Assembly: GCA_965205075.1 (NCBI GenBank)
Contig: OZ242036.1
Location: 3,196,795-3,260,794, forward strand
DNA: 64,000 bases
Origin: Candidatus Poribacteria bacterium
GTDB lineage: Bacteria > Poribacteria > WGA-4E > PCPOR2b
Direction of reading: 5' to 3'
The position numbers and the translations under genes were made by a program. Shown here one piece after another: positions 2,346 through 64,000 of the stretch. How positions within the stretch are numbered: the first letter of the stretch is position 1; every line of letters starts with the position of its first letter. The notes under the pieces are model-generated. The model ran no database searches. It was not told the DNA's origin and worked only from the letters and a program-made list of their open reading frames with translations.

Positions 2346-3944
2346 ATGAAACCACGTCAACGAAAGTACGGCACTGTAGTTGGACCTCACCCTAGGACTG
2401 CCAACGCTGGTATGAATATCCTTCAATCAGGGGGTAACGCGGTGGATGCTGCAATCGCGGCTGCTTTTACTGAAGGGGTCGTTGAACCGTGCCACAACGG
2501 CATAGCGGGGTATGGTGGCTGCATGGTCATCTATCTAGCCGATCAGCGAAAGGTTGTCGCCCTCGACTACAATACAGTGGCACCCGCTGCAGCGTCGGAT
2601 CAGATGTTTACCATCGAAAAGACCGATACCCCAGCGGGCTATCGAGTGCCGGGGAGAGTTAATCTGCATGGACCTCTGGCAGTCGGTGTGCCCGGTGTGG
2701 TAGCAGGATTATGTTTGGCACTTGAGCAATTTGGATCTATGCCACTCGCCGAGATAATTCAACCGGCTATCAGATCTGCCCGCTATGGCTATGCTCCCAA
2801 CACCGCCAATCGAGGTGCCATGGCTGGCAACGCGGAACGATGGCTGCAGGATTTTCCAGAGACCGCGCGCGTTTTCTTAAAGAACGGTCAGGCACCGAAG
2901 CCGGGTGAACGACTTACAAACCCCGATCTCGCCCGAACGCTAGAGGCTGTCGCCGAAGGTGGATCTCCTGCCTTCTATCAAGGCAATATCGCACCAAAGA
3001 TCGCTGACTATATCCAAGAAAGCGGTGGGTGCTTGAGCGTTGAAGATCTGCAGCGTTATACACCACGAGTGCTTGAGCCGTATGAAATTAATTACCGAGG
3101 CTATCAGATCTATACAGCCCCACTCGGTGCAGGCGGATTGACCACCTTGCAGATGCTCCGGTTAATTGAGTCATACGATGTTGGAGGGACTTCCCTCGTC
3201 GAACGAACCCATCTCCTCGCCGAAGCGATGAAAATTGGTTGGCAAGAGCGGCTTAGTCGATTTGGGGATCCCGATTTTGTGGAGATTGATATTGCAGCGG
3301 AACTTTCAGATTCATTCGTCGCTAAATTCGCACCGGAGTTGAAAGCGGGTCTGGAGTCACCAAAGCCGGGAAGAATTGTGTATTATGAACCGCTCAATTG
3401 TACCAGCCACATTTCTACAGCGGATAGCAATGGAAACATGGTGAGTCTCACCCAAACGCATGGCGGCGGATTTGGCTCAATGTTTACCGTACCGGGGACG
3501 GGACTGTTGTTTGGGCACGGGGTGGGGCGTTTCGATCCACGACCGGGGTATGCTAACTCCATTGCCCCCGGCAAGCGACCGTTGCATAACATGGCACCGA
3601 TGCTCGCGTTGCGGAATGACGCTCCTTTTGCCACTTACGGCATTCCCGGCGGTCGTACCATTCCGAACAATCAACTCAGTATTTCGGTGAACCTCATCGA
3701 TCTGCAAATGACCGCTCAAGAAGCCCTAGATGCACCCCGCGTACACAACGAAGGGGCAGAACCGATTGGCGTTGAAGAGCGAGCCGGTGCGGATGTGCTT
3801 GACGGACTGCGAGGACAGGGGCATCAGGTTGAGCCACAGGGAGGTATCGGCGGGCCCGGTCACGCCATCGTGCTTTCGGATGATCCGGCAGTCCAATCCG
3901 GGGGCACCGACCCACGAGGCGAAGGTAGGGTCGCGTCCTTATAA
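2346..3944 (+). CDS. ggt: Gamma-glutamyltransferase
   Basis: 532 aa. Conserved autoprocessing and nucleophile region TSHISTADSNGNMVSLTQTHGGGFGS, with Thr as the nucleophile. Signature GGT family length. Confidence 0.85.
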   Translation: MKPRQRKYGTVVGPHPRTANAGMNILQSGGNAVDAAIAAAFTEGVVEPCHNGIAGYGGCMVIYLADQRKVVALDYNTVAPAAASDQMFTIEKTDTPAGYRVPGRVNLHGPLAVGVPGVVAGLCLALEQFGSMPLAEIIQPAIRSARYGYAPNTANRGAMAGNAERWLQDFPETARVFLKNGQAPKPGERLTNPDLARTLEAVAEGGSPAFYQGNIAPKIADYIQESGGCLSVEDLQRYTPRVLEPYEINYRGYQIYTAPLGAGGLTTLQMLRLIESYDVGGTSLVERTHLLAEAMKIGWQERLSRFGDPDFVEIDIAAELSDSFVAKFAPELKAGLESPKPGRIVYYEPLNCTSHISTADSNGNMVSLTQTHGGGFGSMFTVPGTGLLFGHGVGRFDPRPGYANSIAPGKRPLHNMAPMLALRNDAPFATYGIPGGRTIPNNQLSISVNLIDLQMTAQEALDAPRVHNEGAEPIGVEERAGADVLDGLRGQGHQVEPQGGIGGPGHAIVLSDDPAVQSGGTDPRGEGRVASL

Positions 3945-28385: not shown

Positions 28386-29264
28386 TCAGCGATTTGAAAC
28401 CAGTTCTTTTAAGGGTGCGAGCAGTTTCGCCGTAAGATAGGGTCCTGATCCCTCCCCAATCGCATCAGGGTTCAAACTTCTTCGTCCCGATGCTTCATCG
28501 GGGGCAATCGGTGTCTCACCGTCATTGTCTTCTGGAATCAACTCGACAGATGTAATGCCTCCCCAGCTTTCACGACGCATCTCCATGCGATAGCACTCCA
28601 AACTCCCGTAACGCCCTTGGTCGATGTACTCCAATCCACACCTCTCAAAGCAGAGAAAGGCAGCATAATTATCGACCCCCACTTGAAGCTCAAAAGCCTC
28701 CACGCCGAGATGTTCAAATGCCCAGTCAATCGCCTGCTGCATCACCTCTGTACCATACCCCTGATAACGGCAATCAGGTCGAATAACAATAAACTCAACT
28801 GTTGCGAGTTTCCCATCCTCATCAGTGCATCTAATCAGCATAAAACCAACCAGTTCACCGGTTGGCAGATCAACTGAAAGTGGGTGCGTGTCTTCATCAG
28901 CGAGCCAACGATGCCAGTTGTCGACGTAAGCGTGGAACGGCATGAATTTAGTGTGCAAGCGATCACGAAGGGCAGGTTCATTCGTCCACCCCCAAATGCG
29001 CCGCAAATCTCGCTCCTCAGTTGTTCTCAGTTTTACGCTGCCGCCGTAAAGCTTTTCTAGCTCGCGCAGTTGAGTCCGTAAGATCGCCAACTGATCAGTA
29101 AATGAATCCGCCTGTCCTGCTGCGGTGCCAATCAGGCGCTGGTTCGGCTGATCAATGAACTCAGACTGCTTCAGTCGATTCTGAAAATAGGTGAGTTTCT
29201 GCTCATTTTTTTCAATAATTCGTCTCAATTTGTCAATCACTTGATGTCCACTATCGCTTCGCAC
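28386..29264 (-). CDS. GNAT-family N-acetyltransferase with an N-terminal coiled-coil region
   Basis: C-terminal GNAT core (VGFMLIRC ... RYQGYGTEVMQQAIDWAF). Start placed at GTG 29264 after RBS AAAGGAGG. It overlaps the rsgA stop by 14 nt. Confidence 0.55.
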   Translation of the reverse strand: MRSDSGHQVIDKLRRIIEKNEQKLTYFQNRLKQSEFIDQPNQRLIGTAAGQADSFTDQLAILRTQLRELEKLYGGSVKLRTTEERDLRRIWGWTNEPALRDRLHTKFMPFHAYVDNWHRWLADEDTHPLSVDLPTGELVGFMLIRCTDEDGKLATVEFIVIRPDCRYQGYGTEVMQQAIDWAFEHLGVEAFELQVGVDNYAAFLCFERCGLEYIDQGRYGSLECYRMEMRRESWGGITSVELIPEDNDGETPIAPDEASGRRSLNPDAIGEGSGPYLTAKLLAPLKELVSNR

Positions 29265-30252
29265 GTTTATGCCTCCTTTCATACCGTTTTTTCTCTTTCC
29301 TCGGTCCTTCACGTTCAAATCTTCCTGCACTGAATCCCGATATGCGCAAGTAGCTATCGTACCGCAACTCGCTAATCTCTCCACCTTCGACAGCACTTTT
29401 AACCGCACACCCCGGTTCATGCTGATGGGTGCACGCTGCAAATTTGCATTCAGGAATGTAAGGACGCATTTCAGGGAAGTAGATGTCTAGCCCCTGTTCA
29501 TCATCAATCTCAAACAAGCCGAGTGTACGGATGCCCGGTGTGTCTGCGACAAACCCACCAAAATGGAGTGGTAAAAGGGCAACCTCCGTTGTGGTATGCT
29601 GTCCCTTGTGCATCCGTTCATCAACATCGCCGACGCGCAGCCGCAAGCCCGGCTGGATTTCGTTGAGTAATGACGATTTGCCAACGCCAGACGATCCGAC
29701 GATAGCGGAAATCCGATCTCTCATCACCGTACGCATTTCGTCAATTCCAACACCAGTTACAATACTAGTGTAGATCACATTGTAACCGATTCTCTCGTAC
29801 AGCGCCATTTGTGCTTTTAATTTTTCCAGTTGGACCAAGTCAATCTTGTTAATACAGATTATGGGTAACATCCCCGATGCCTCGGCTGTCACGAGAAAGC
29901 GATCTAACATGCGTAATTTGAGTTGAGGGTTTCGTGCTGCAAAGATGACTAGCAAGAGATCGAGGTTCGCTACAATGACCTGTGGCAATTTGTTTACGCG
30001 CGTGCGGCCAAATTGGGTCTCACGCGGAAGAATCTCCTCAATATAACCCATATCCGCTTTCGACCCTGATCGAGAGATTTGCACTCGATCGCCGACAGAA
30101 ACGAGATCCACGTAGGGCAACTCTTTCGTTTCTGCACGCTCCCGTCTATCCGCTTCAATAATATGATGTCGCAATGAGCAGTGGTAGAGTTGTTCTCCGA
30201 TCTGGACATCATACCCCCCACCGTGTGCTTTGATAACGATTCCTTCATCCAT
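29251..30252 (-). CDS. rsgA: Ribosome small-subunit-dependent GTPase A
   Basis: G4 NKIDL, G1 GSSGVGKSSLLN, and a C-terminal zinc finger CKFAACTHQHEPGCAV. OB-fold N-terminus. Confidence 0.85.
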   Translation of the reverse strand: MDEGIVIKAHGGGYDVQIGEQLYHCSLRHHIIEADRRERAETKELPYVDLVSVGDRVQISRSGSKADMGYIEEILPRETQFGRTRVNKLPQVIVANLDLLLVIFAARNPQLKLRMLDRFLVTAEASGMLPIICINKIDLVQLEKLKAQMALYERIGYNVIYTSIVTGVGIDEMRTVMRDRISAIVGSSGVGKSSLLNEIQPGLRLRVGDVDERMHKGQHTTTEVALLPLHFGGFVADTPGIRTLGLFEIDDEQGLDIYFPEMRPYIPECKFAACTHQHEPGCAVKSAVEGGEISELRYDSYLRISGFSAGRFEREGPRKEKKRYERRHKRAKR

Positions 30253-30270: not shown

Positions 30271-30318
30271 GTTAAATAAAAAAAGCCCGCAAGGAAACTC
30301 ATCCTTACGGGCTTTTCG
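30271..30318 (-). terminator. Rho-independent terminator (11-bp stem plus TTTTTTTATTT on the minus strand), 20 nt upstream of the rsgA start
   Basis: gcccgcaagga-aactca-tccttacgggc, flanked by an A-run on plus (a T-run on minus). No annotated minus-strand gene lies upstream of it. Confidence 0.5.
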
Positions 30319-30337
30319 ACATCACACCAAACGAGAT

Positions 30338-30454
30338 TTACGTAGCCGTTCCTACCAATCCGAAACGCAGATGGGCAGAGTCAAGACAAGTTCCTTGATT
30401 ATCCAATATATTGTTTTTTCTACCGCAGTTAATTCGTTTAAGCATTTCTTGCAT
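30338..30454 (-). CDS. Candidate small ORF (38 aa, MQEMLKRINCGRKNNILDNQGTCLDSAHLRFGLVGTAT) ending just before the terminator
   Basis: ATG preceded by AGGTGGT at 7-nt spacing. Located between a possible sigma54-like motif and the terminator. No homology evidence. Confidence 0.25.
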   Translation of the reverse strand: MQEMLKRINCGRKNNILDNQGTCLDSAHLRFGLVGTAT

Positions 30455-30681
30455 GACTTTGCACCACCTTTCTATGTAGTTGGATTGAGTTGCTATCTAT
30501 ATCTAACGCCTATTTCTAATCAAGGTTGCAATTTCACTTATTTTAACACACTTCAATCCCATCCTCAAGTAAAACTTCAGTTAATTTTCACACATCCAGA
30601 TCCATTAACAACAGAGATTAATACTGACCATCAATTTTTGTGCCAACTAGTCCCCATACCCCTTTGCAGCCATGAATTCCC

Positions 30682-58881: not shown

Positions 58882-58887
58882 TCAACT

Positions 58888-59512
58888 TAGTATACGTCGG
58901 AACCCTTTAGCGGAAGTGCCACAACCCAGATATTACGATACTTCACCGGGTTACCGTGGTTTGCAGGCGTAAGGGTCCCGGTGCTGCGGCTTCGTCGTCC
59001 GTCGCCCCACCTGTAGCCCCCTCTATTTGGACGTTATTCTGTATCACAATCCCATTCTGCAGCACGGTCACACGTGCGTTCTCTTCAATCTCTCCCGACT
59101 CACTGATGCGAGCAGCGCGGAATATCGCATCGTATGTTTGCCATTCAAGCGGTGGCTTGCAAGCGTTTACCAACGATGCAAATTGATTGTAAATTGCGCC
59201 ACAGTCTCCCATGCCCGGCACATCAATCCCGTAGGAATCCAAGACTTGGATTTCATACCGTCCCTGAAGGAATACCCCACTATTTCCTTTTGCTTGACCC
59301 GTTGCGTCTGGCATGTCGGGTGTCATGAACTCTAAATGAAGTAGAAAATCGGTAAACTTCTCCCGACTCACGATGTCCCCTCCGCCGGCGGTCACGGTCA
59401 TCGCGCCGTCAGCGACCTCCCACGCCGGTGATCCGCCATCAAGTGTCGTCCAGTTGCTGAGATCTGTCCCATCAAAAAGAATAACTGCCGCCTCCGGTGG
59501 TGTCTGCATCAT
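58888..59512 (-). pseudogene. DUF1080 (3-keto-disaccharide hydrolase) family gene with an apparent 1-nt frameshift near the C-terminus (or a sequencing error)
   Basis: ORF 58943-59515 ends ...GPLRLQTTVTR*. Shifting one base after LQ (around 58958-58964) restores the conserved family C-terminus HGNPVKYRNIWVVALPLKGSDVY-stop at 58888. Confidence 0.45.
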
Positions 59513-59530
59513 CAATTGCCCTCTCTTTTG

Positions 59531-59567
59531 AAAAATAAAAAAGCAGGGCTAAAAAATCAGCCCTGCT
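59531..59567 (-). terminator. Intrinsic terminator on the minus strand (AGCAGGGCT-gatttttt-AGCCCTGCT plus TTTTTTATTTTT), 20 nt upstream of the DUF1080 start
   Basis: Stem-loop at 59542-59567. The T-tract on the minus strand corresponds to the plus-strand A-run at 59531-59542. Confidence 0.55.
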
Positions 59568-59710
59568 CTGCACCTAAGTTTGAGATCAAGGGAAGAACCG
59601 TCCCCTAGGAGAAAGCTCCCTTGATGGGGGAAGCACTGTCTCCTAAAAGACAGCACCTCCCTTGATCATTCCACTAGATGGTAACAAGAATGATCACCTC
59701 CTTTCATTTT
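59568..59710 (-). ncRNA. Candidate structured 5' leader (riboswitch/attenuator-like) preceding the terminator and the DUF1080 gene
   Basis: Multiple nested inverted repeats: ATCAAGGGA/TCCCTTGAT twice, CTGTC/GACAG, CCCCTAGG. No coding potential. Immediately followed by the terminator and RBS. Confidence 0.3.
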
Positions 59711-60002
59711 AAAGGATACGAATAGCATAGCACACCTAGAAAACTTTGTCAACAGTAAAGTCTGTTCATTTTTCTCAATAGTTAAAAAAATCTGAGTTAG
59801 TGGTGAAAATATCAAAAAGAGAATATAACACCTGAATTGAAAACTGGAGGCAAATCAGAATGATTTTTTGTTGACTTTTTCCTACAAAGGTGTTAGGTTG
59901 ATTTGCACGACAGGTGTTCACCATCTGATCTATTACACCCCAAAAATATGTGCGAATTTTGGTTCAAGTACACAACAGCCAGCAAACCAGCAGGAGGATA
60001 TC

Positions 60003-60851
60003 ATGCCTTACAAACTTAGACCAGACAAGATGTATATGATGCCAACACACTTTGGTCCCGGCATGGGACCGAGGCAGGGACCGTGTGGACGCAAATTCGA
60101 GTGTAAGGACAGTCCGAAGTCAACGTCCGTATCAGTCAGCTTTTTGACGAACCGTGAACAACTTCAGGAATTTTTGCCTGAACGCTTCGAGGTTGGCGCA
60201 GAGCCGGTCGTCAGCGTTTCTGCATCCTATATGACGGAGATCGAGTGGTTGGCGGGTCGTGGATACAATGTCCTCGGCGTCAGCTTTCCCGCCATCTTCA
60301 ACGGGGAACGAGATCGCGCTGAAGGCGGGCTGCTGACGGTGCTTTGGGAAAACCTGTGCGATCCGATCCTTACGGGTCGTGAGCAGTTGGGCTTCTCCAA
60401 AATCTACTGTGAGCTTCCGGAGCCGGTCGTGCTTCGCGGAGACACACACTGCATTGCCAGTTGGCTCGGCTTCAAGTTCTTGGATATGGAACTGACGAAC
60501 ATGGAGCAGGTGGCACTGGATCCAAACCCTGCGCCGGCAGCTCCACCTCCGGATGATGGTGTGCTGCGGGGGACCTTGCACTACAAATATATGCCCCGAA
60601 CCGGGGAATGGGGCCAAGGCGATGTCGGGTATGCCGTACTCACGCCGGCAGAAGGAAGCAACAGCATTACTAAAGAACTGTGGCGCGGTGAGGGAACAGT
60701 GGAGTTTCACAAAGCGAGGTGGGAAGACCTACCAACACAGTATCACATAGTCAACGCCTTCCATGAGTTGGAAATTAAAGAATACCGCGGTGCAACCATC
60801 TCTAAAAGCGTTGGCGGCAAAGATCTCAGCGATCAACGAATTCTTCAGTAG
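60003..60851 (+). CDS. Hypothetical protein, possibly acetoacetate-decarboxylase-like fold
   Basis: 282 aa. RBS AGGAGGA 6 nt upstream of the ATG. Weak resemblance only. No firm motif. Confidence 0.4.
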   Translation: MPYKLRPDKMYMMPTHFGPGMGPRQGPCGRKFECKDSPKSTSVSVSFLTNREQLQEFLPERFEVGAEPVVSVSASYMTEIEWLAGRGYNVLGVSFPAIFNGERDRAEGGLLTVLWENLCDPILTGREQLGFSKIYCELPEPVVLRGDTHCIASWLGFKFLDMELTNMEQVALDPNPAPAAPPPDDGVLRGTLHYKYMPRTGEWGQGDVGYAVLTPAEGSNSITKELWRGEGTVEFHKARWEDLPTQYHIVNAFHELEIKEYRGATISKSVGGKDLSDQRILQ

Positions 60852-62391: not shown

Positions 62392-64000
62392 TTACTTCAA
62401 TATTAACATCCGCCGTGTTGCCGTGAACTCTCCCGCTGCCAGTGTGTAAAAATAGAGACCACTAACGACAAACTCACCCAGCTGGTTCCGTCCGTCCCAA
62501 TAGGCTGCGCGGCTGCGACTCTGATACATCCCCGCCGCTTGATGCCCTACCGGCAATCGTCGAACCATCTCCCCATTTATATCATAAATCGTCAGCGTCA
62601 CCTCTGCTGACTCCGCTAACTGATAGGGCATCCACGTCTCCGGGTTAAACGGATTCGGATAGTTTGCCAACAACGCGGTCTCTTCAGGAATTAATGAGGC
62701 TAGCAGTTTTTGGAGGTTCTTTATTCCCTGTTTGAAGGGGTGCGAACCATCATCTTCCAACCGTGCCTGCGCTATCCACGCTTCTATCATCGCAGCATCT
62801 ATGTTTTCTGCTGCAACCACAGGCGCAGCAGATGATCCGGCAATCCTCTGTGACACGAGGATGAGGTCAAGGATACTGACAACACCGTCGCCGTTGACAT
62901 CCACCGCCGAACCTGCGGACACTCTTTTACCCAACTGTTGCGCAACAAGAACCAGATCCAGAATGCTCACCCGTCCATCCCGATTCACGTCCCCGGTGGT
63001 AAGCTGTCCTTCTATAGTAATGTGAATTTCATGGGGGCCTGCAGGAATACTATCACCGGTGCTAGCAGCAAACTCAAAATCACGCAGTGCCAACTCTGTT
63101 TCACCGATGGCTTTCGCCTTGAACCTTACTTGAAGCAGTGTACCGGTGCCACCCACACCTTGGGAGGACAACCGCGCCGCATTGAGTCCCGTAATTTTAC
63201 CCGCTGCGTTATCAATACTTCCTCCCTGAAAAAAGGTGGTGCCGCCACCGGTCTTCAGGAAATCACCCTCGCTCACGTTGATGACTTCAAGGACAGTAGG
63301 GTCGAAGGCGATATCAAACTGCCACCCTGCTAGGTTAATGACATCTTCTGCACGGATGTCAAGGGTAAAGGTATCACCTATATGAATTGGCGTTTTAGAA
63401 AAAGCGTAATCAAGACTGGGGTTTGTCACTGTATATTCAGTGCCGGGCTCAAATCCAAAAAAAGCGTTACCGTCACTAGGCGTGATATTAACTGCCGCTA
63501 ACAGGATATTTCTCCCCTGCTTCAGCGTAACCGGGGAATAATCACTGTAATCCTCACCCCAAAGCCTATCAAGGCGCTCGTAAACCAAACCCCCGTTGAG
63601 CCAGACCTTTAGCCCGTGCAGGGCACCAACGTACATCGCTGTGTTCTGTTCCTGTGGAGAATAGAGGGACACAGTGCCGTAGACAACTCCACGGAACTCG
63701 CGTTTCAGCATATCTTCAATGTTATCCCAGCCCATAGTTGGGAGTTTATAGAATGTCCACACATCATCGCCGACAGATTGCCCTTCCACTGCCCCGTGGG
63801 TGGAGACCTCCACCTCTGTCACCCTCCCACCACTCACTTCTGATAGTAAATCGGTACTGCTATCCAGCTTAGTATCCGGTAGCACGACCCATAGCCACGG
63901 TCCTTCTATCTTCGGCCCCCCTTGTGGAAATCCCGGATTTGCGTGCCAAATAAGCGTTATATTCTCTCGTAATCCGTCCAAGGGCGAAAAGTCGGAAATT
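62392..64000 (-). CDS. Secreted cohesin-domain plus tandem dockerin-repeat protein with a T9SS-type (Por_Secre_tail/FlgD-Ig-like) C-terminal sorting domain; 5' end lies beyond the window
   Basis: Cohesin-like segment (TLDIRAEDVINLAGWQFDIAFDPTVLEVINVSEGDF...). Dockerin repeats (GDVNRDGRVSILDLVLVAQQL, VDVNGDGVVSILDLILVSQRI). C-terminal NYPNPFNPET...GLYFYTLAAGEFTATRRMLILK. Confidence 0.7.
   Translation of the reverse strand, partial: ISDFSPLDGLRENITLIWHANPGFPQGGPKIEGPWLWVVLPDTKLDSSTDLLSEVSGGRVTEVEVSTHGAVEGQSVGDDVWTFYKLPTMGWDNIEDMLKREFRGVVYGTVSLYSPQEQNTAMYVGALHGLKVWLNGGLVYERLDRLWGEDYSDYSPVTLKQGRNILLAAVNITPSDGNAFFGFEPGTEYTVTNPSLDYAFSKTPIHIGDTFTLDIRAEDVINLAGWQFDIAFDPTVLEVINVSEGDFLKTGGGTTFFQGGSIDNAAGKITGLNAARLSSQGVGGTGTLLQVRFKAKAIGETELALRDFEFAASTGDSIPAGPHEIHITIEGQLTTGDVNRDGRVSILDLVLVAQQLGKRVSAGSAVDVNGDGVVSILDLILVSQRIAGSSAAPVVAAENIDAAMIEAWIAQARLEDDGSHPFKQGIKNLQKLLASLIPEETALLANYPNPFNPETWMPYQLAESAEVTLTIYDINGEMVRRLPVGHQAAGMYQSRSRAAYWDGRNQLGEFVVSGLYFYTLAAGEFTATRRMLILK

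What the first reader, a model, noticed from the sequence alone, without database searches (positions are those of the whole stretch)
59531..59710. Riboswitch- or attenuator-like structured leader with intrinsic terminator upstream of a DUF1080 gene
On the minus strand, a non-coding stretch of about 140 nt is rich in mutually exclusive inverted repeats (ATCAAGGGA/TCCCTTGAT in two copies, CTGTC/GACAG, CCCCTAGG). It is followed by a textbook terminator (9-bp GC-rich stem plus TTTTTTATTTTT) and then the RBS and start of the DUF1080 gene only 20 nt later. This is the arrangement of a transcription-attenuation riboswitch or leader. It does not obviously match a known riboswitch class by eye.
Basis: seen in the sequence. 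Interest (0 to 1): 0.55.

Follow-up and report, generated by a model that had tools for sequence, protein, structure and literature searches.

The report
Conserved structured leader RNA before DUF1080
A roughly 185-base, highly structured and unusually well conserved RNA sits between a promoter and a strong terminator just upstream of a sugar-enzyme-like gene in one group of sponge-symbiont Poribacteria; it matches no catalogued RNA family and is probably a leader that gates read-through into the gene, but that regulation is not proven.

Summary
On the minus strand there is a sigma70-type promoter (59752..59724) and a ~190-nt non-coding stretch (59723..59531) that folds far better than shuffles (z = -7.7). 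It ends in a textbook intrinsic terminator (59569..59540 plus T-tract), about 6 nt before the DUF1080 ribosome-binding site (about 18 nt before the ATG).

The window is from Candidatus Poribacteria. The element occurs once per locus, always directly upstream of DUF1080. I found it in 26 fetched loci (about two dozen assemblies) spanning two different gene neighbourhoods. It is 92% identical where third codon positions of DUF1080 are 71% identical. About 50 more distant orthologues lack it and have a plain promoter.

No Rfam family matches. No sense-strand promoter lies between terminator and gene, so DUF1080 must be transcribed by read-through.

The RNA has two mutually exclusive folds, a 14-nt Shine-Dalgarno-like sequence and a 14-codon ORF. 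However, there is no compensatory covariation, and the only candidate antiterminator is no stronger than chance (4-10% of shuffles reach it).

Best reading (0.42): a new, clade-restricted attenuator-type leader, possibly coupled to ribosome binding. Main rival (0.30): the terminated RNA is itself a small regulatory RNA. A metabolite riboswitch is unlikely. Interest is moderate.

The parts
59724..59752 (-). Sigma70-type promoter: -35 TTGACA, 17-nt spacer, extended -10 TGcTATGCT
   Evidence: 10 of 12 matches, TG present. In the alignment both hexamers are invariant or nearly so, while the spacer varies. That is the expected signature of a functional promoter.
59531..59723 (-). The conserved element: predicted transcript from about 59717 (TSS inferred) to the end of the T-tract, about 185 nt
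   Evidence: mean column identity 93-94% over 22 sequences; 92% identity versus 71% at codon position 3; z = -7.7; no Rfam family.
59699..59716 (-). 5'-terminal hairpin UCCUUU/AAAGGA that partly covers the Shine-Dalgarno-like sequence
   Evidence: 99% of cells paired. The changes seen are C->U giving U-G wobble (two sequences); one sequence (L022) breaks the terminal pair.
59692..59705 (-). GAAAGGAGGTGATC, a 14-nt Shine-Dalgarno-like sequence, invariant in all 22 sequences
   Evidence: invariant columns 19-32. Complementarity to the 16S rRNA 3' end GAUCACCUCCUUUC rests on general knowledge. No Poribacteria 16S sequence was available to check it.
59643..59687 (-). Candidate 14-codon leader ORF, TTG...TAG (MLPSSGMIKGGAVF), start 9 nt after GGAGG
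   Evidence: sequence; 5 of 7 substitution events are silent in this frame versus 1/7 and 2/7 in the other frames (p about 0.045, or 0.009 with the all-substitution rate). Against: TTG becomes CTG in L087.
59663..59696 (-). Local hairpin A:A' (UGAUCAUUC / GAAUGAUCA), with the TTG start codon at the 5' end of its loop
   Evidence: I19 (9 nt, 100% complementary). helix 2 (100% paired; 2 pairs change to G-U). It forms first in stepwise folding.
59628..59661 (-). Local hairpin B:C (GGGAGGUGCUGUCU / AGACAGUGCUUCCC), with the ORF stop codon in its loop
   Evidence: I9. helix 3 (99.5% paired). at lengths 95-125.
59585..59625 (-). Local hairpin D:F (AUCAAGGGAG ... UUCCCUUGAU)
   Evidence: I14. helix 4 (100% paired).
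59584..59667 (-). Alternative long hairpin (27 pairs; 5' arm 59667-59640, 3' arm 59611-59584). It is mutually exclusive with A:A', B:C and D:F
   Evidence: I1. (MFE and consensus fold). helix 2 (98.7% paired; 10 pairs vary on one side, almost all wobble<->Watson-Crick).: -90.8 versus -79.5 kcal/mol for the local-hairpin fold.
59683..59689 (-). 5' half of the only candidate antiterminator (UCUUGUU; includes the TTG start codon)
   Evidence: pairs with 59567-59561 in 21 of 22 truncated transcripts; gain of 8.0 kcal/mol versus 3.8-4.4 +/- 2.2-2.4 in shuffles; 4-10% of shuffles reach it, so this is inconclusive.
59540..59569 (-). Intrinsic terminator stem-loop (13 pairs, 6 G-C). Its 5' arm at 59567-59561 is the 3' half of the candidate antiterminator
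   Evidence: -21.4 kcal/mol; the stem is invariant and only the loop varies; pair probability >0.9999.
59531..59542 (-). Terminator T-tract TTTTTTATTTTT
58943..59525 (-). DUF1080 / 3-keto-disaccharide hydrolase gene with RBS GAGAGGG (59525-59519) and ATG at 59512. In this window it is frameshifted near 58961
   Evidence: PF06439, E = 1.3e-34. (homologues 208 aa). (1-nt deletion; the conserved C-terminus continues in another frame to 58887).

Best explanation
The stretch is a clade-specific, roughly 185-nt structured 5' leader RNA of the DUF1080 mRNA in one subgroup of Candidatus Poribacteria.

Shown:
- A consensus promoter starts the unit and a strong intrinsic terminator ends it, about 6 nt before the DUF1080 RBS (about 18 nt before the ATG).
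- DUF1080 has no recognisable promoter of its own.
- The transcribed part is under much stronger purifying selection than the gene.
- The RNA can adopt two mutually exclusive, similarly well-preserved folds. One is three local hairpins. The other is a single long hairpin.

Inferred:
- Most transcripts stop at the terminator and accumulate as a short RNA. DUF1080 is made only from read-through transcripts, so the leader sets DUF1080 expression and probably regulates it.
- The most likely trigger is the ribosome. A 14-nt Shine-Dalgarno-like sequence and a 14-codon ORF lie in the 5' half.
- In the proposed model, early 30S binding or translation keeps nucleotides 59696-59673 from extending the long hairpin over the terminator's 5' arm. 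The terminator then forms.
- Without a ribosome, the giant hairpin (59696..59555) can sequester that arm and favour read-through.
- Because most nucleotides take part in two alternative helices, and some also in the ORF, almost any substitution would need several compensations. This would explain the near-invariance.
For: 1. Unit boundaries. The promoter hexamers and everything from the -10 box to the terminator are invariant or nearly so. The -35/-10 spacer, the terminator loop, the post-terminator RBS zone and codon wobble positions all vary. Identity to the window is 92% for the element, 87% for CDS nucleotides and 71% for codon position 3.

2. Linkage to DUF1080. There is one copy per locus, always directly upstream of DUF1080, in 26 fetched loci (L001-L019, L022, L083, L084, L087, L093, L094 and the window; some are duplicate assemblies). 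Upstream neighbours vary. L022/L083 have a completely different neighbourhood on both sides. No other copy was found in 595 kb.

3. No sense-strand sigma70-like promoter lies between terminator and gene. This also holds in the three lineages with 110-380 nt inserted there. Orthologues without the element carry TTGACA-17-TAAAAT directly upstream.

4. Folding. z = -7.7. Both folds are 98.5-99% paired across 22 sequences. Substitutions in L016, L017, L022 and L087 in the long hairpin convert G-U or U-U to Watson-Crick pairs, or G-C to G-U. Stepwise folding forms the local hairpins first and the long hairpin only after position 141. Energies are -79.5, -90.8 and -78.9 kcal/mol for local + terminator, long + terminator and giant hairpin without terminator.

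5. In 21 of 22 sequences, the transcript truncated before the terminator's 3' arm pairs that terminator's 5' arm with 59689-59683.

6. ORF. 5 of 7 substitution events are silent in frame, including TAG->TAA.
Against: - No base pair shows a compensatory double change. Covariation measures do not exceed shuffles, so no structure is proven by comparative data.
- The candidate antiterminator has 7 pairs, 3 of them G-U, plus a flanking helix that is broken in several genomes. It is 12-14 kcal/mol weaker than the terminator. 4-10% of shuffled controls reach it.
- The terminator is compatible with both main folds, so termination may be constitutive.
- The ORF start codon is CTG in L087. The silent changes also fall in loops or give G-U pairs, so RNA structure alone explains them.
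- Insertions between terminator and gene are tolerated in three lineages.
- DUF1080 is frameshifted in this window while the element is intact. Both of the last two points fit a function that does not depend on DUF1080.
- There are no expression data.
Confidence: 0.42

Rival explanations
1. The functional product is the terminated ~185-nt RNA itself. On this reading it is an independent small RNA that acts in trans by base pairing or by binding a protein. Candidate features are C/U-rich anti-SD-like stretches such as CUUCCCCC and UUCUUCCCUUGAU, and six GGA/SD-like motifs that could act as decoys. DUF1080 merely lies downstream and receives leaky, unregulated read-through.
For: - The promoter is very strong and invariant, and so is the terminator.
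- Sequence-level invariance covers both arms of the helices, beyond what hairpins alone require.
- The boundaries of constraint coincide exactly with the short transcript.
- Insertions of 110-380 nt between terminator and DUF1080 are tolerated in three lineages.
- The element is intact where DUF1080 is frameshifted.
- The antiterminator is not better than chance.
- A second promoter / non-coding stretch / terminator / gene-start arrangement lies upstream of rsgA in the same window. This suggests such units are common in this genome.
Against: - The element is never seen apart from DUF1080. It keeps that linkage in a second, unrelated gene neighbourhood.
- DUF1080 has no promoter of its own, so placing a strong terminator cassette there would silence a gene that is clearly under purifying selection.
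- No target or partner protein is known.
- The GGGA motifs lie mostly inside stems rather than loops.
- The two readings are not exclusive.
Confidence: 0.3
2. It is a metabolite-sensing riboswitch (for example for a sugar or 3-keto-glycoside) with a terminator expression platform, as the first reader proposed as one option.
For: - The arrangement of promoter, structured conserved leader, terminator and enzyme gene is right.
- Alternative folds exist.
- There is no Rfam match, so it would be a new class.
Against: - The architecture is a series of long, near-perfect hairpins built from internal repeats (D1 and D2). There is no multi-helix junction or conserved unpaired core.
- The conserved positions are mostly in stems.
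- The element is restricted to one shallow clade and a single gene. The same gene in about 50 related genomes uses a plain promoter.
- The overlap between the expression platform and the terminator is weak.
- The presence of an SD and an ORF points to the ribosome rather than a small molecule.
Confidence: 0.07
3. It is a small-protein gene. On this reading the 14-residue peptide MLPSSGMIKGGAVF is the functional product and the rest is its 3' UTR and terminator.
For: - There is a strong SD with 9-nt spacing to TTG.
- 5 of 7 substitutions are silent, and the stop codon is kept as TAG or TAA.
Against: - Conservation is just as strong for about 100 nt downstream of the stop codon.
- The start is CTG in L087.
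- The SD and start are occluded by hairpins in both folds.
- 14 residues is extremely short for a functional protein.
- The silent changes are equally explained by loop positions and G-U pairs.
Confidence: 0.06
4. It is a repeat-derived or mobile DNA element (MITE-like), or a type III toxin-antitoxin-like repeat array, rather than a dedicated regulator.
For: - It contains internal direct repeats at a 41-nt period and long inverted repeats.
- The order promoter, repeats, terminator, gene is that of type III TA loci (PMC3401426).
- Other MITE-like insertions occur at this very site in relatives.
Against: - There is a single copy per locus. No other copy was found in 595 kb of Poribacteria DNA, and there were no hits in viral contigs. 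The metagenome scan gave only two chance coding hits.
- Tandem Repeats Finder finds no array even at score 30.
- The downstream protein is a DUF1080 enzyme-family member with no match to any defence or toxin model.
- The position is orthologous, and the variation follows the gene's phylogeny.
Confidence: 0.03

Closest known systems
Leader-peptide (ribosome-mediated) transcription attenuators, e.g. trp/his/pheA leaders and erm/cat-type leaders (own knowledge)
   Same: - The order is promoter, short ORF with its own SD, overlapping mutually exclusive hairpins, an intrinsic terminator, then the regulated gene immediately downstream.
- The regulated gene has no promoter of its own.
   Different: - There are no runs of regulatory codons.
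- The downstream gene is neither an amino-acid biosynthesis nor a resistance gene.
- The antiterminator is weak and statistically unconvincing.
- The ORF stop lies about 75 nt before the terminator.
- The sequence is far more conserved than such leaders usually are.
Riboswitch leaders with terminator expression platforms
   Same: A conserved structured 5' leader ends in an intrinsic terminator just upstream of an enzyme gene. Premature termination would yield a short stable RNA.
   Different: - There is no match to any of 4227 Rfam models.
- There is no junction-type aptamer architecture.
- The phylogenetic range is very narrow.
- An SD and an ORF lie inside the leader.
Type III toxin-antitoxin loci (toxIN, cptIN, tenpIN; PMC3401426)
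   Same: The order of parts is the same: promoter, repeated RNA units, palindromic terminator that sets the RNA:mRNA ratio, then a protein gene within 1-50 bp.
   Different: - The repeats are degenerate (77% or less) and Tandem Repeats Finder does not detect them.
- The protein is a DUF1080 family member, not a ToxN/AbiQ/CptN/TenpN endoribonuclease.
- Orthologous genes elsewhere lack the repeats.
STAB-SD 5' mRNA stabiliser of Bacillus thuringiensis cry3A (PMC4113751)
   Same: [quoted passage not shown] A bound 30S subunit would protect the RNA from 5'-3' decay.
   Different: - Here a possible TTG start and a 14-codon ORF follow at proper spacing.
- The motif is partly buried in a 5' hairpin.
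- The organism is not a Firmicute, and whether it has RNase J was not checked.
- STAB-SD elements are not followed by a terminator before the gene.
Ribosomal protein L20 leader (Rfam RF00558)
   Same: It is the best sub-threshold Rfam hit. Both are leaders of about 130-140 nt ending in an intrinsic terminator.
   Different: - The score is 25-28 bits against a gathering score of 58.7.
- The aligned part is mainly the terminator and a U-rich spacer.
- The downstream gene is DUF1080, not infC-rpmI-rplT.

Membership tests
Any Rfam riboswitch or leader family | Covariance-model score at or above the family's gathering threshold | tested here: not met
   0 matches at gathering in the whole 64 kb; the best hit is L20_leader at 25-28 bits against 58.7, and everything else has E > 0.01.
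Riboswitch (generic) | Conserved ligand-binding core supported by covarying helices | tested here: inconclusive
   0 pairs with changes on both sides, and covariation is not above shuffles. The sequences are too similar (93% mean identity). The architecture is stacked hairpins without a junction.
Riboswitch (generic) | Direct binding of a small molecule | not testable with these tools
   Needs in-line probing, ITC or transcription assays.
Transcription attenuator (terminator/antiterminator leader) | Intrinsic terminator between promoter and regulated gene, and no promoter in between | tested here: met
   (terminator at -21.4 kcal/mol, T-tract). (the only sense-strand sigma70-like site is upstream of the element, in four loci).
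Transcription attenuator (terminator/antiterminator leader) | Alternative structure that sequesters one arm of the terminator | tested here: inconclusive
   59689-59683 pairs with 59567-59561 in 21 of 22 truncated transcripts; this fold is 12 kcal/mol weaker than the terminator fold; 4-10% of shuffles give an equal gain.
Leader-peptide attenuator | Short translated ORF with SD and start codon in the leader | tested here: inconclusive
   SD plus TTG at 9 nt spacing. 5 of 7 substitution events silent. However, the start is CTG in L087, and translation itself is not testable here.
Leader-peptide attenuator (amino-acid type) | Clustered regulatory codons for the cognate amino acid | tested here: not met
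   The peptide MLPSSGMIKGGAVF has no codon run (translation). The downstream gene is DUF1080.
Type III toxin-antitoxin | Tandem array of near-identical repeats detectable with Tandem Repeats Finder (criterion of PMC3401426) | tested here: not met
   no array at minimum score 30; the repeat copies are 77-85% identical over 13-30 nt only.
Type III toxin-antitoxin | Downstream ToxN/AbiQ/CptN/TenpN-type toxin | tested here: not met
   PF06439 at E = 1.3e-34; no PADLOC model matches.
Ribosomal protein L20 leader (RF00558) | Located upstream of infC-rpmI-rplT and scoring at or above 58.7 bits | tested here: not met
   (25.0 and 27.9 bits). (the downstream gene is DUF1080).
CsrB/RsmZ-type protein-sponging sRNA | Multiple GGA motifs exposed in hairpin loops, and presence of CsrA/RsmA | tested here: inconclusive
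   Six GGA-containing motifs are present, but the AAGGGAG copies lie in stems in both folds. No RsmZ/CsrB model hit falls in the element. Presence of csrA in Poribacteria was not tested.
Dispersed repeat / MITE | Many copies per genome at unrelated sites | tested here: not met
   nhmmer --max over 595 kb (the window plus 94 loci) finds only the copy upstream of DUF1080; no true hits in metagenome or viral collections. Whole genomes could not be scanned.

The most novel reading that the evidence does not exclude
The element could be a new kind of RNA switch whose 'ligand' is the small ribosomal subunit itself.

- Three Shine-Dalgarno-like repeats sit at a 41-nt period, roughly one ribosome footprint apart. 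The first is a 14-nt perfect match to the 16S rRNA 3' end.
- These repeats compete with C/U-rich anti-SD-like arms inside two alternative folds.
- Free 30S availability, or translation capacity, would therefore set the fold and with it terminator read-through.
- Alternatively, the abundant terminated RNA could act as a decoy for the 16S 3' end or for SD-binding factors.
Probability: 0.08. Interest if true: 0.75.

Novelty: new member of a known kind. Interest (0 to 1): 0.4.

Why it matters
If confirmed, this would be the first experimentally tractable cis-regulatory RNA candidate that I am aware of in Candidatus Poribacteria, an uncultivated sponge-symbiont phylum; two literature searches returned nothing relevant.

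It would also be an example of a leader acquired by one shallow clade in front of a gene that its relatives express from a plain promoter. That offers a natural before-and-after comparison for how attenuators arise.

The unusual features make it a useful test case for how overlapping constraints freeze RNA sequence, and for ribosome-coupled control outside the model phyla. These features are the near-frozen sequence, two equally preserved alternative folds, a 14-nt anti-16S match and a minimal ORF.

It also cautions that DUF1080 expression in these genomes cannot be inferred from promoter presence alone. Its reach is limited, because the element is confined to one gene in one clade and its function is unproven.

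Tried and rejected
1. Known RNA family. Rfam at gathering on 64 kb, and at E <= 10 on the region and on two divergent copies, gave only noise. The L20 leader hit is terminator-driven.

2. Wider homologues. A metagenome pattern scan (AAGGAGGTGATC-N20-40-ATCAAGGGAGG) found two chance matches inside a soil coding sequence. A viral contig scan found none. This left no route to deeper covariation.

3. Longer coding potential. A 35-codon frame through the hairpins, and a prfB-like +1 shift at UUU-UAG behind the internal SD, were considered from the sequence. Both were rejected because 1-3-nt indels in relatives break that frame.

4. HutP/TRAP-like UAG or GAG triplet arrays. The third and fourth UAG are not conserved (CAG, CAU, CAA, AAG).

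5. Sequestration of the DUF1080 RBS or start by CAUCAA...CUUUCU (I4). The partner region after the terminator varies between genomes.

6. Type III toxin-antitoxin. TRF was negative and the protein is not a toxin family member.

7. Dispersed repeat. nhmmer was negative.

8. Element associated with the divergent ADC/AKR genes instead of DUF1080. The distance to ADC varies from about 250 nt to more than 3 kb, and ADC is absent in L022, while the DUF1080 linkage is constant.

9. Literature searches for Poribacteria RNA motifs returned nothing relevant.

10. Further orthologue look-ups at 74-76% identity (P0088, P0090, P0093, P0101, P0104) gave loci without the element.
Full report
**What is there**

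Reading the minus strand gives the following order of features:
- A sigma70-type promoter, TTGACA-17-TGcTATGCT, at 59752..59724.
- A non-coding stretch from 59723 to 59531.
- Within that stretch, a textbook intrinsic terminator. The stem is at 59569..59540 with 13 pairs including a perfect 9-bp AGCAGGGCU/AGCCCUGCU core, followed by the tail TTTTTTATTTTT.
- The RBS GAGAGGG (59525-59519) and ATG (59512) of a gene matching Pfam PF06439, 3-keto-disaccharide hydrolase / DUF1080, at E = 1.3e-34.

On the other side a divergent ADC-family gene starts at 60003 (+). The stretch folds far better than chance: -93.5 kcal/mol against -59.1 +/- 4.5 for shuffles, z = -7.7. Only four strong terminator-like sites exist in the 64 kb, and this is one of three textbook ones.

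**Anatomy**

I number the element from u1 = 59723, so window coordinate = 59724 - u. The predicted transcript starts at about u6-u8 (inferred from the -10 box).
- The RNA begins with a hairpin UCCUUU/AAAGGA (u8-13/u20-25).
- GAAAGGAGGUGAUC (u19-32) is a 14-nt Shine-Dalgarno-like sequence. It is complementary to the generic bacterial 16S rRNA 3' end. This rests on general knowledge, since no Poribacteria 16S sequence was at hand.
- A TTG lies 9 nt after GGAGG and opens a 14-codon ORF, u37-81, encoding MLPSSGMIKGGAVF and ending in TAG.
- AU[GC]AA[AG]GGAG occurs three times at a 41-nt period (D2). Units 2 and 3 are 77% identical over 30 nt (D1), so the element contains an internal duplication.

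The duplication produces two mutually exclusive folds:
- Local fold: hairpins A:A' (u28-36/u53-61), B:C (u67-76/u83-92, extendable to about 15 bp) and D:F (u99-108/u130-139).
- Long fold: a 27-pair hairpin, u57-84 with u113-140.

The terminator is compatible with both folds. Energies on the 193-nt RNA are -79.5 kcal/mol (local hairpins plus terminator) and -90.8 kcal/mol (long hairpin plus terminator). In stepwise folding the local hairpins are the MFE up to length 125. The long hairpin takes over from length 141.

**Source organism and relatives**

The DUF1080 protein has hundreds of close homologues, and those that carry a name are from Candidatus Poribacteria, which are sponge symbionts. 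I fetched 80 genomic loci and 12 further places.

The element is present as follows:
- L001-L019 and L094: same neighbourhood as the window, with a convergent ABC transporter downstream and variable content upstream.
- L022, L083 and L084: a different neighbourhood on both sides, with Fe-ADH upstream and an oppositely oriented aldo-keto reductase downstream.
- L087.
- L093: a contig-end fragment carrying only the 3' half.

Some of these loci are duplicate assemblies of the same genome. The element is always directly upstream of DUF1080 and single-copy. The metagenome and viral pattern scans found no true homologue.

About 50 more distant Poribacteria orthologues (70-75% protein identity) lack the element. 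They have TTGACA-17-TAAAAT directly upstream, plus a roughly 70-nt UTR.

**Constraint**

In the alignments the following are invariant or nearly so:
- the two promoter hexamers;
- practically everything from the -10 box to the terminator.

The following vary:
- the promoter spacer;
- the sequence upstream of -35;
- the terminator loop;
- the 20 nt after the T-tract;
- codon wobble positions.

Quantitatively, identity to the window averages 92% for the element, 87% for DUF1080 nucleotides and 71% for third codon positions. For L022 the values are 86%, 75% and 54%. The unit under selection is therefore exactly the short transcript. This argues for an RNA-level function and against a DNA operator or neutral spacer.

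**Structure evidence**

No pair shows a change on both sides, and the covariation measures do not exceed shuffles. The sequences are too similar for a comparative proof.

What can be said is limited to the following:
- Both folds stay 98.5-99% paired.
- The one-sided substitutions are almost all structure-preserving.
- In the long hairpin, the changes in L016 (u78 U->C, u81 G->A), L017, L022 (three changes in u127-130, one turning a U-U mismatch into U-A) and L087 (four changes in the 3' arm, one in the 5' arm) convert wobble pairs to Watson-Crick pairs, or G-C to G-U.
- Changes at u33, u54, u87, u89 and u90 do the same for the local hairpins, apart from one mismatch in L087.

Both folds therefore look maintained. 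A network in which most nucleotides pair in two alternative helices would also explain the near-frozen sequence. This last step is inference.

**Is it an attenuator?**

For:
- DUF1080 has no recognisable promoter between the terminator and its start. This holds in the window and in the three lineages where 110-380 nt of unrelated, partly inverted-repeat DNA have been inserted exactly there.
- The gene is under purifying selection, so it must be expressed by read-through.
- The element-DUF1080 pair persists in two unrelated neighbourhoods.

The missing piece is a convincing antiterminator:
- Folding transcripts truncated before the terminator's 3' arm extends the long hairpin outward. u35-41 (UCUUGUU, containing the TTG start) pairs with u157-163 (AGCAGGG, the terminator's 5' arm), and u44-51 pairs with u145-153. 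This occurs in 21 of 22 sequences.
- That giant hairpin is 12-14 kcal/mol less stable than the terminator-containing fold.
- Three of its seven core pairs are G-U, and the flanking helix is broken in several genomes.
- The 8.0 kcal/mol it contributes is reached by 4-10% of shuffled controls.

Regulated termination is therefore plausible but not demonstrated. A constitutive, ratio-setting terminator is equally compatible with the data.

**The small ORF**

Seven substitution events fall in codons 2 to the stop codon. Five are silent in the ORF frame, including TAG->TAA, against one and two in the other frames. The binomial probability is about 0.045 with the transition-only synonymous fraction, or 0.009 with the all-substitution fraction. 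This is suggestive, but two points weaken it:
- The same positions are loop positions or give G-U pairs.
- A 1-nt deletion turns TTG into CTG in L087.

The SD and start are occluded in both folds. Initiation would therefore depend on a 30S subunit binding before u53-61 is transcribed. That is the basis for the proposed ribosome-coupled model:
- An early-bound or translating ribosome keeps u29-51 unavailable, and the terminator forms.
- Without it, the giant hairpin can cover the terminator's 5' arm.

Alternatively, the SD could act as a STAB-SD-like 5' stabiliser (PMC4113751).

**Comparison with known systems**

- Rfam families: no Rfam family matches. The L20-leader hit (25-28 bits against 58.7) is carried by the terminator.
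- Leader-peptide attenuators: the arrangement is the same, but there are no regulatory codon runs and no strong antiterminator.
- Type III toxin-antitoxin loci: the order promoter, repeats, terminator, gene is the same (PMC3401426). However, Tandem Repeats Finder detects no array, and the protein is a DUF1080 member with no defence-model match.
- Riboswitches: the architecture is not aptamer-like. It is a chain of near-perfect hairpins with conserved stems, it contains an SD and an ORF, and it is confined to one gene in one shallow clade.

**Verdict**

This is a real, strongly constrained, previously uncatalogued structured leader RNA, restricted to one Poribacteria subgroup.

| Reading | Probability |
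|---|---|
| Attenuator-type leader gating read-through into DUF1080, probably ribosome-coupled | about 0.42 |
| The terminated RNA is itself a trans-acting small RNA, with incidental read-through (not mutually exclusive with the first) | about 0.30 |
| Metabolite riboswitch | about 0.07 |
| Small-protein gene | about 0.06 |
| Mobile element or type III-like array | about 0.03 |

The remainder is unassigned. Novelty: a new member of a known kind. Interest is moderate (0.4). The element is well defined and testable, but narrow in distribution, and it lacks covariation or expression evidence.

Noticed in passing
window 30280-30568 (minus strand), upstream of rsgA (29251-30252): This is a second unit with the same layout. 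A promoter-like site (30568..30540, TTGAGG-17-TAAAAT) is followed by about 250 nt with no Pfam-recognisable ORF; only a 38-codon ORF at 30454-30338 is present. Next comes a 16-bp-stem textbook terminator (30317..30280), and the RsgA GTPase start follows about 28 nt later. No Rfam family matches. It may be another leader or small RNA.
   Followed up: partly
window 58887-58965 (minus strand), 3' end of DUF1080: The window's DUF1080 gene has a 1-nt deletion near 58961. The called ORF ends at 58943 (189 aa), while the conserved C-terminus NHGNPVKYRNIWVV...* continues in another frame to 58887. Homologues are 208 aa. This is either a recent pseudogene or an assembly error. The upstream element is intact.
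   Followed up: partly
L020-L064, about 100 nt upstream of position 3001 in each locus: DUF1080 orthologues without the element share a different conserved 5' region. It consists of the promoter CTTGACAAAAAAGCGnATTTCGTTAAAAT and a roughly 70-nt UTR. In many of these loci the UTR has a short hairpin (e.g. GCGCATGCacagCATGCG) abutting the SD AAAGGAAAAC. This could be a separate small regulatory element.
   Followed up: no
L004 2704-2985 (= L007), L010 2596-2975, L087 275-375: Three independent insertions of about 110-380 nt lie exactly between the terminator T-tract and the DUF1080 RBS. The one in L004 begins with an inverted-repeat, MITE-like module AGGACTTACGC...GCGTAAGTCCT. None carries a sigma70-like promoter.
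   Followed up: partly
L001-L019, region upstream of the element (locus positions about 450-2750): The distance between the divergent ADC/AKR genes and the element ranges from about 250 nt to more than 3 kb, and in several genomes a different divergent gene starts about 10 nt upstream of the -35 box. This intergenic region is a hotspot of gene insertion, while the element-DUF1080 junction stays fixed.
   Followed up: partly
L093 1-120 compared with L022 2880-3005: In L093 the DUF1080 protein is 85% identical to the window's and the downstream ABC transporter is window-type. Yet the 3' half of its element and its RBS region are nearly identical to those of L022, whose protein is only 75% identical to the window's. 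This hints at recombination of the leader between lineages.
   Followed up: no
window 62392-63981 (minus strand): This is a 529-aa ORF with cohesin, dockerin type I and FlgD-Ig-like domains. It fits the cohesin/dockerin repertoire I recall being reported for Poribacteria; it was not examined further.
   Followed up: no
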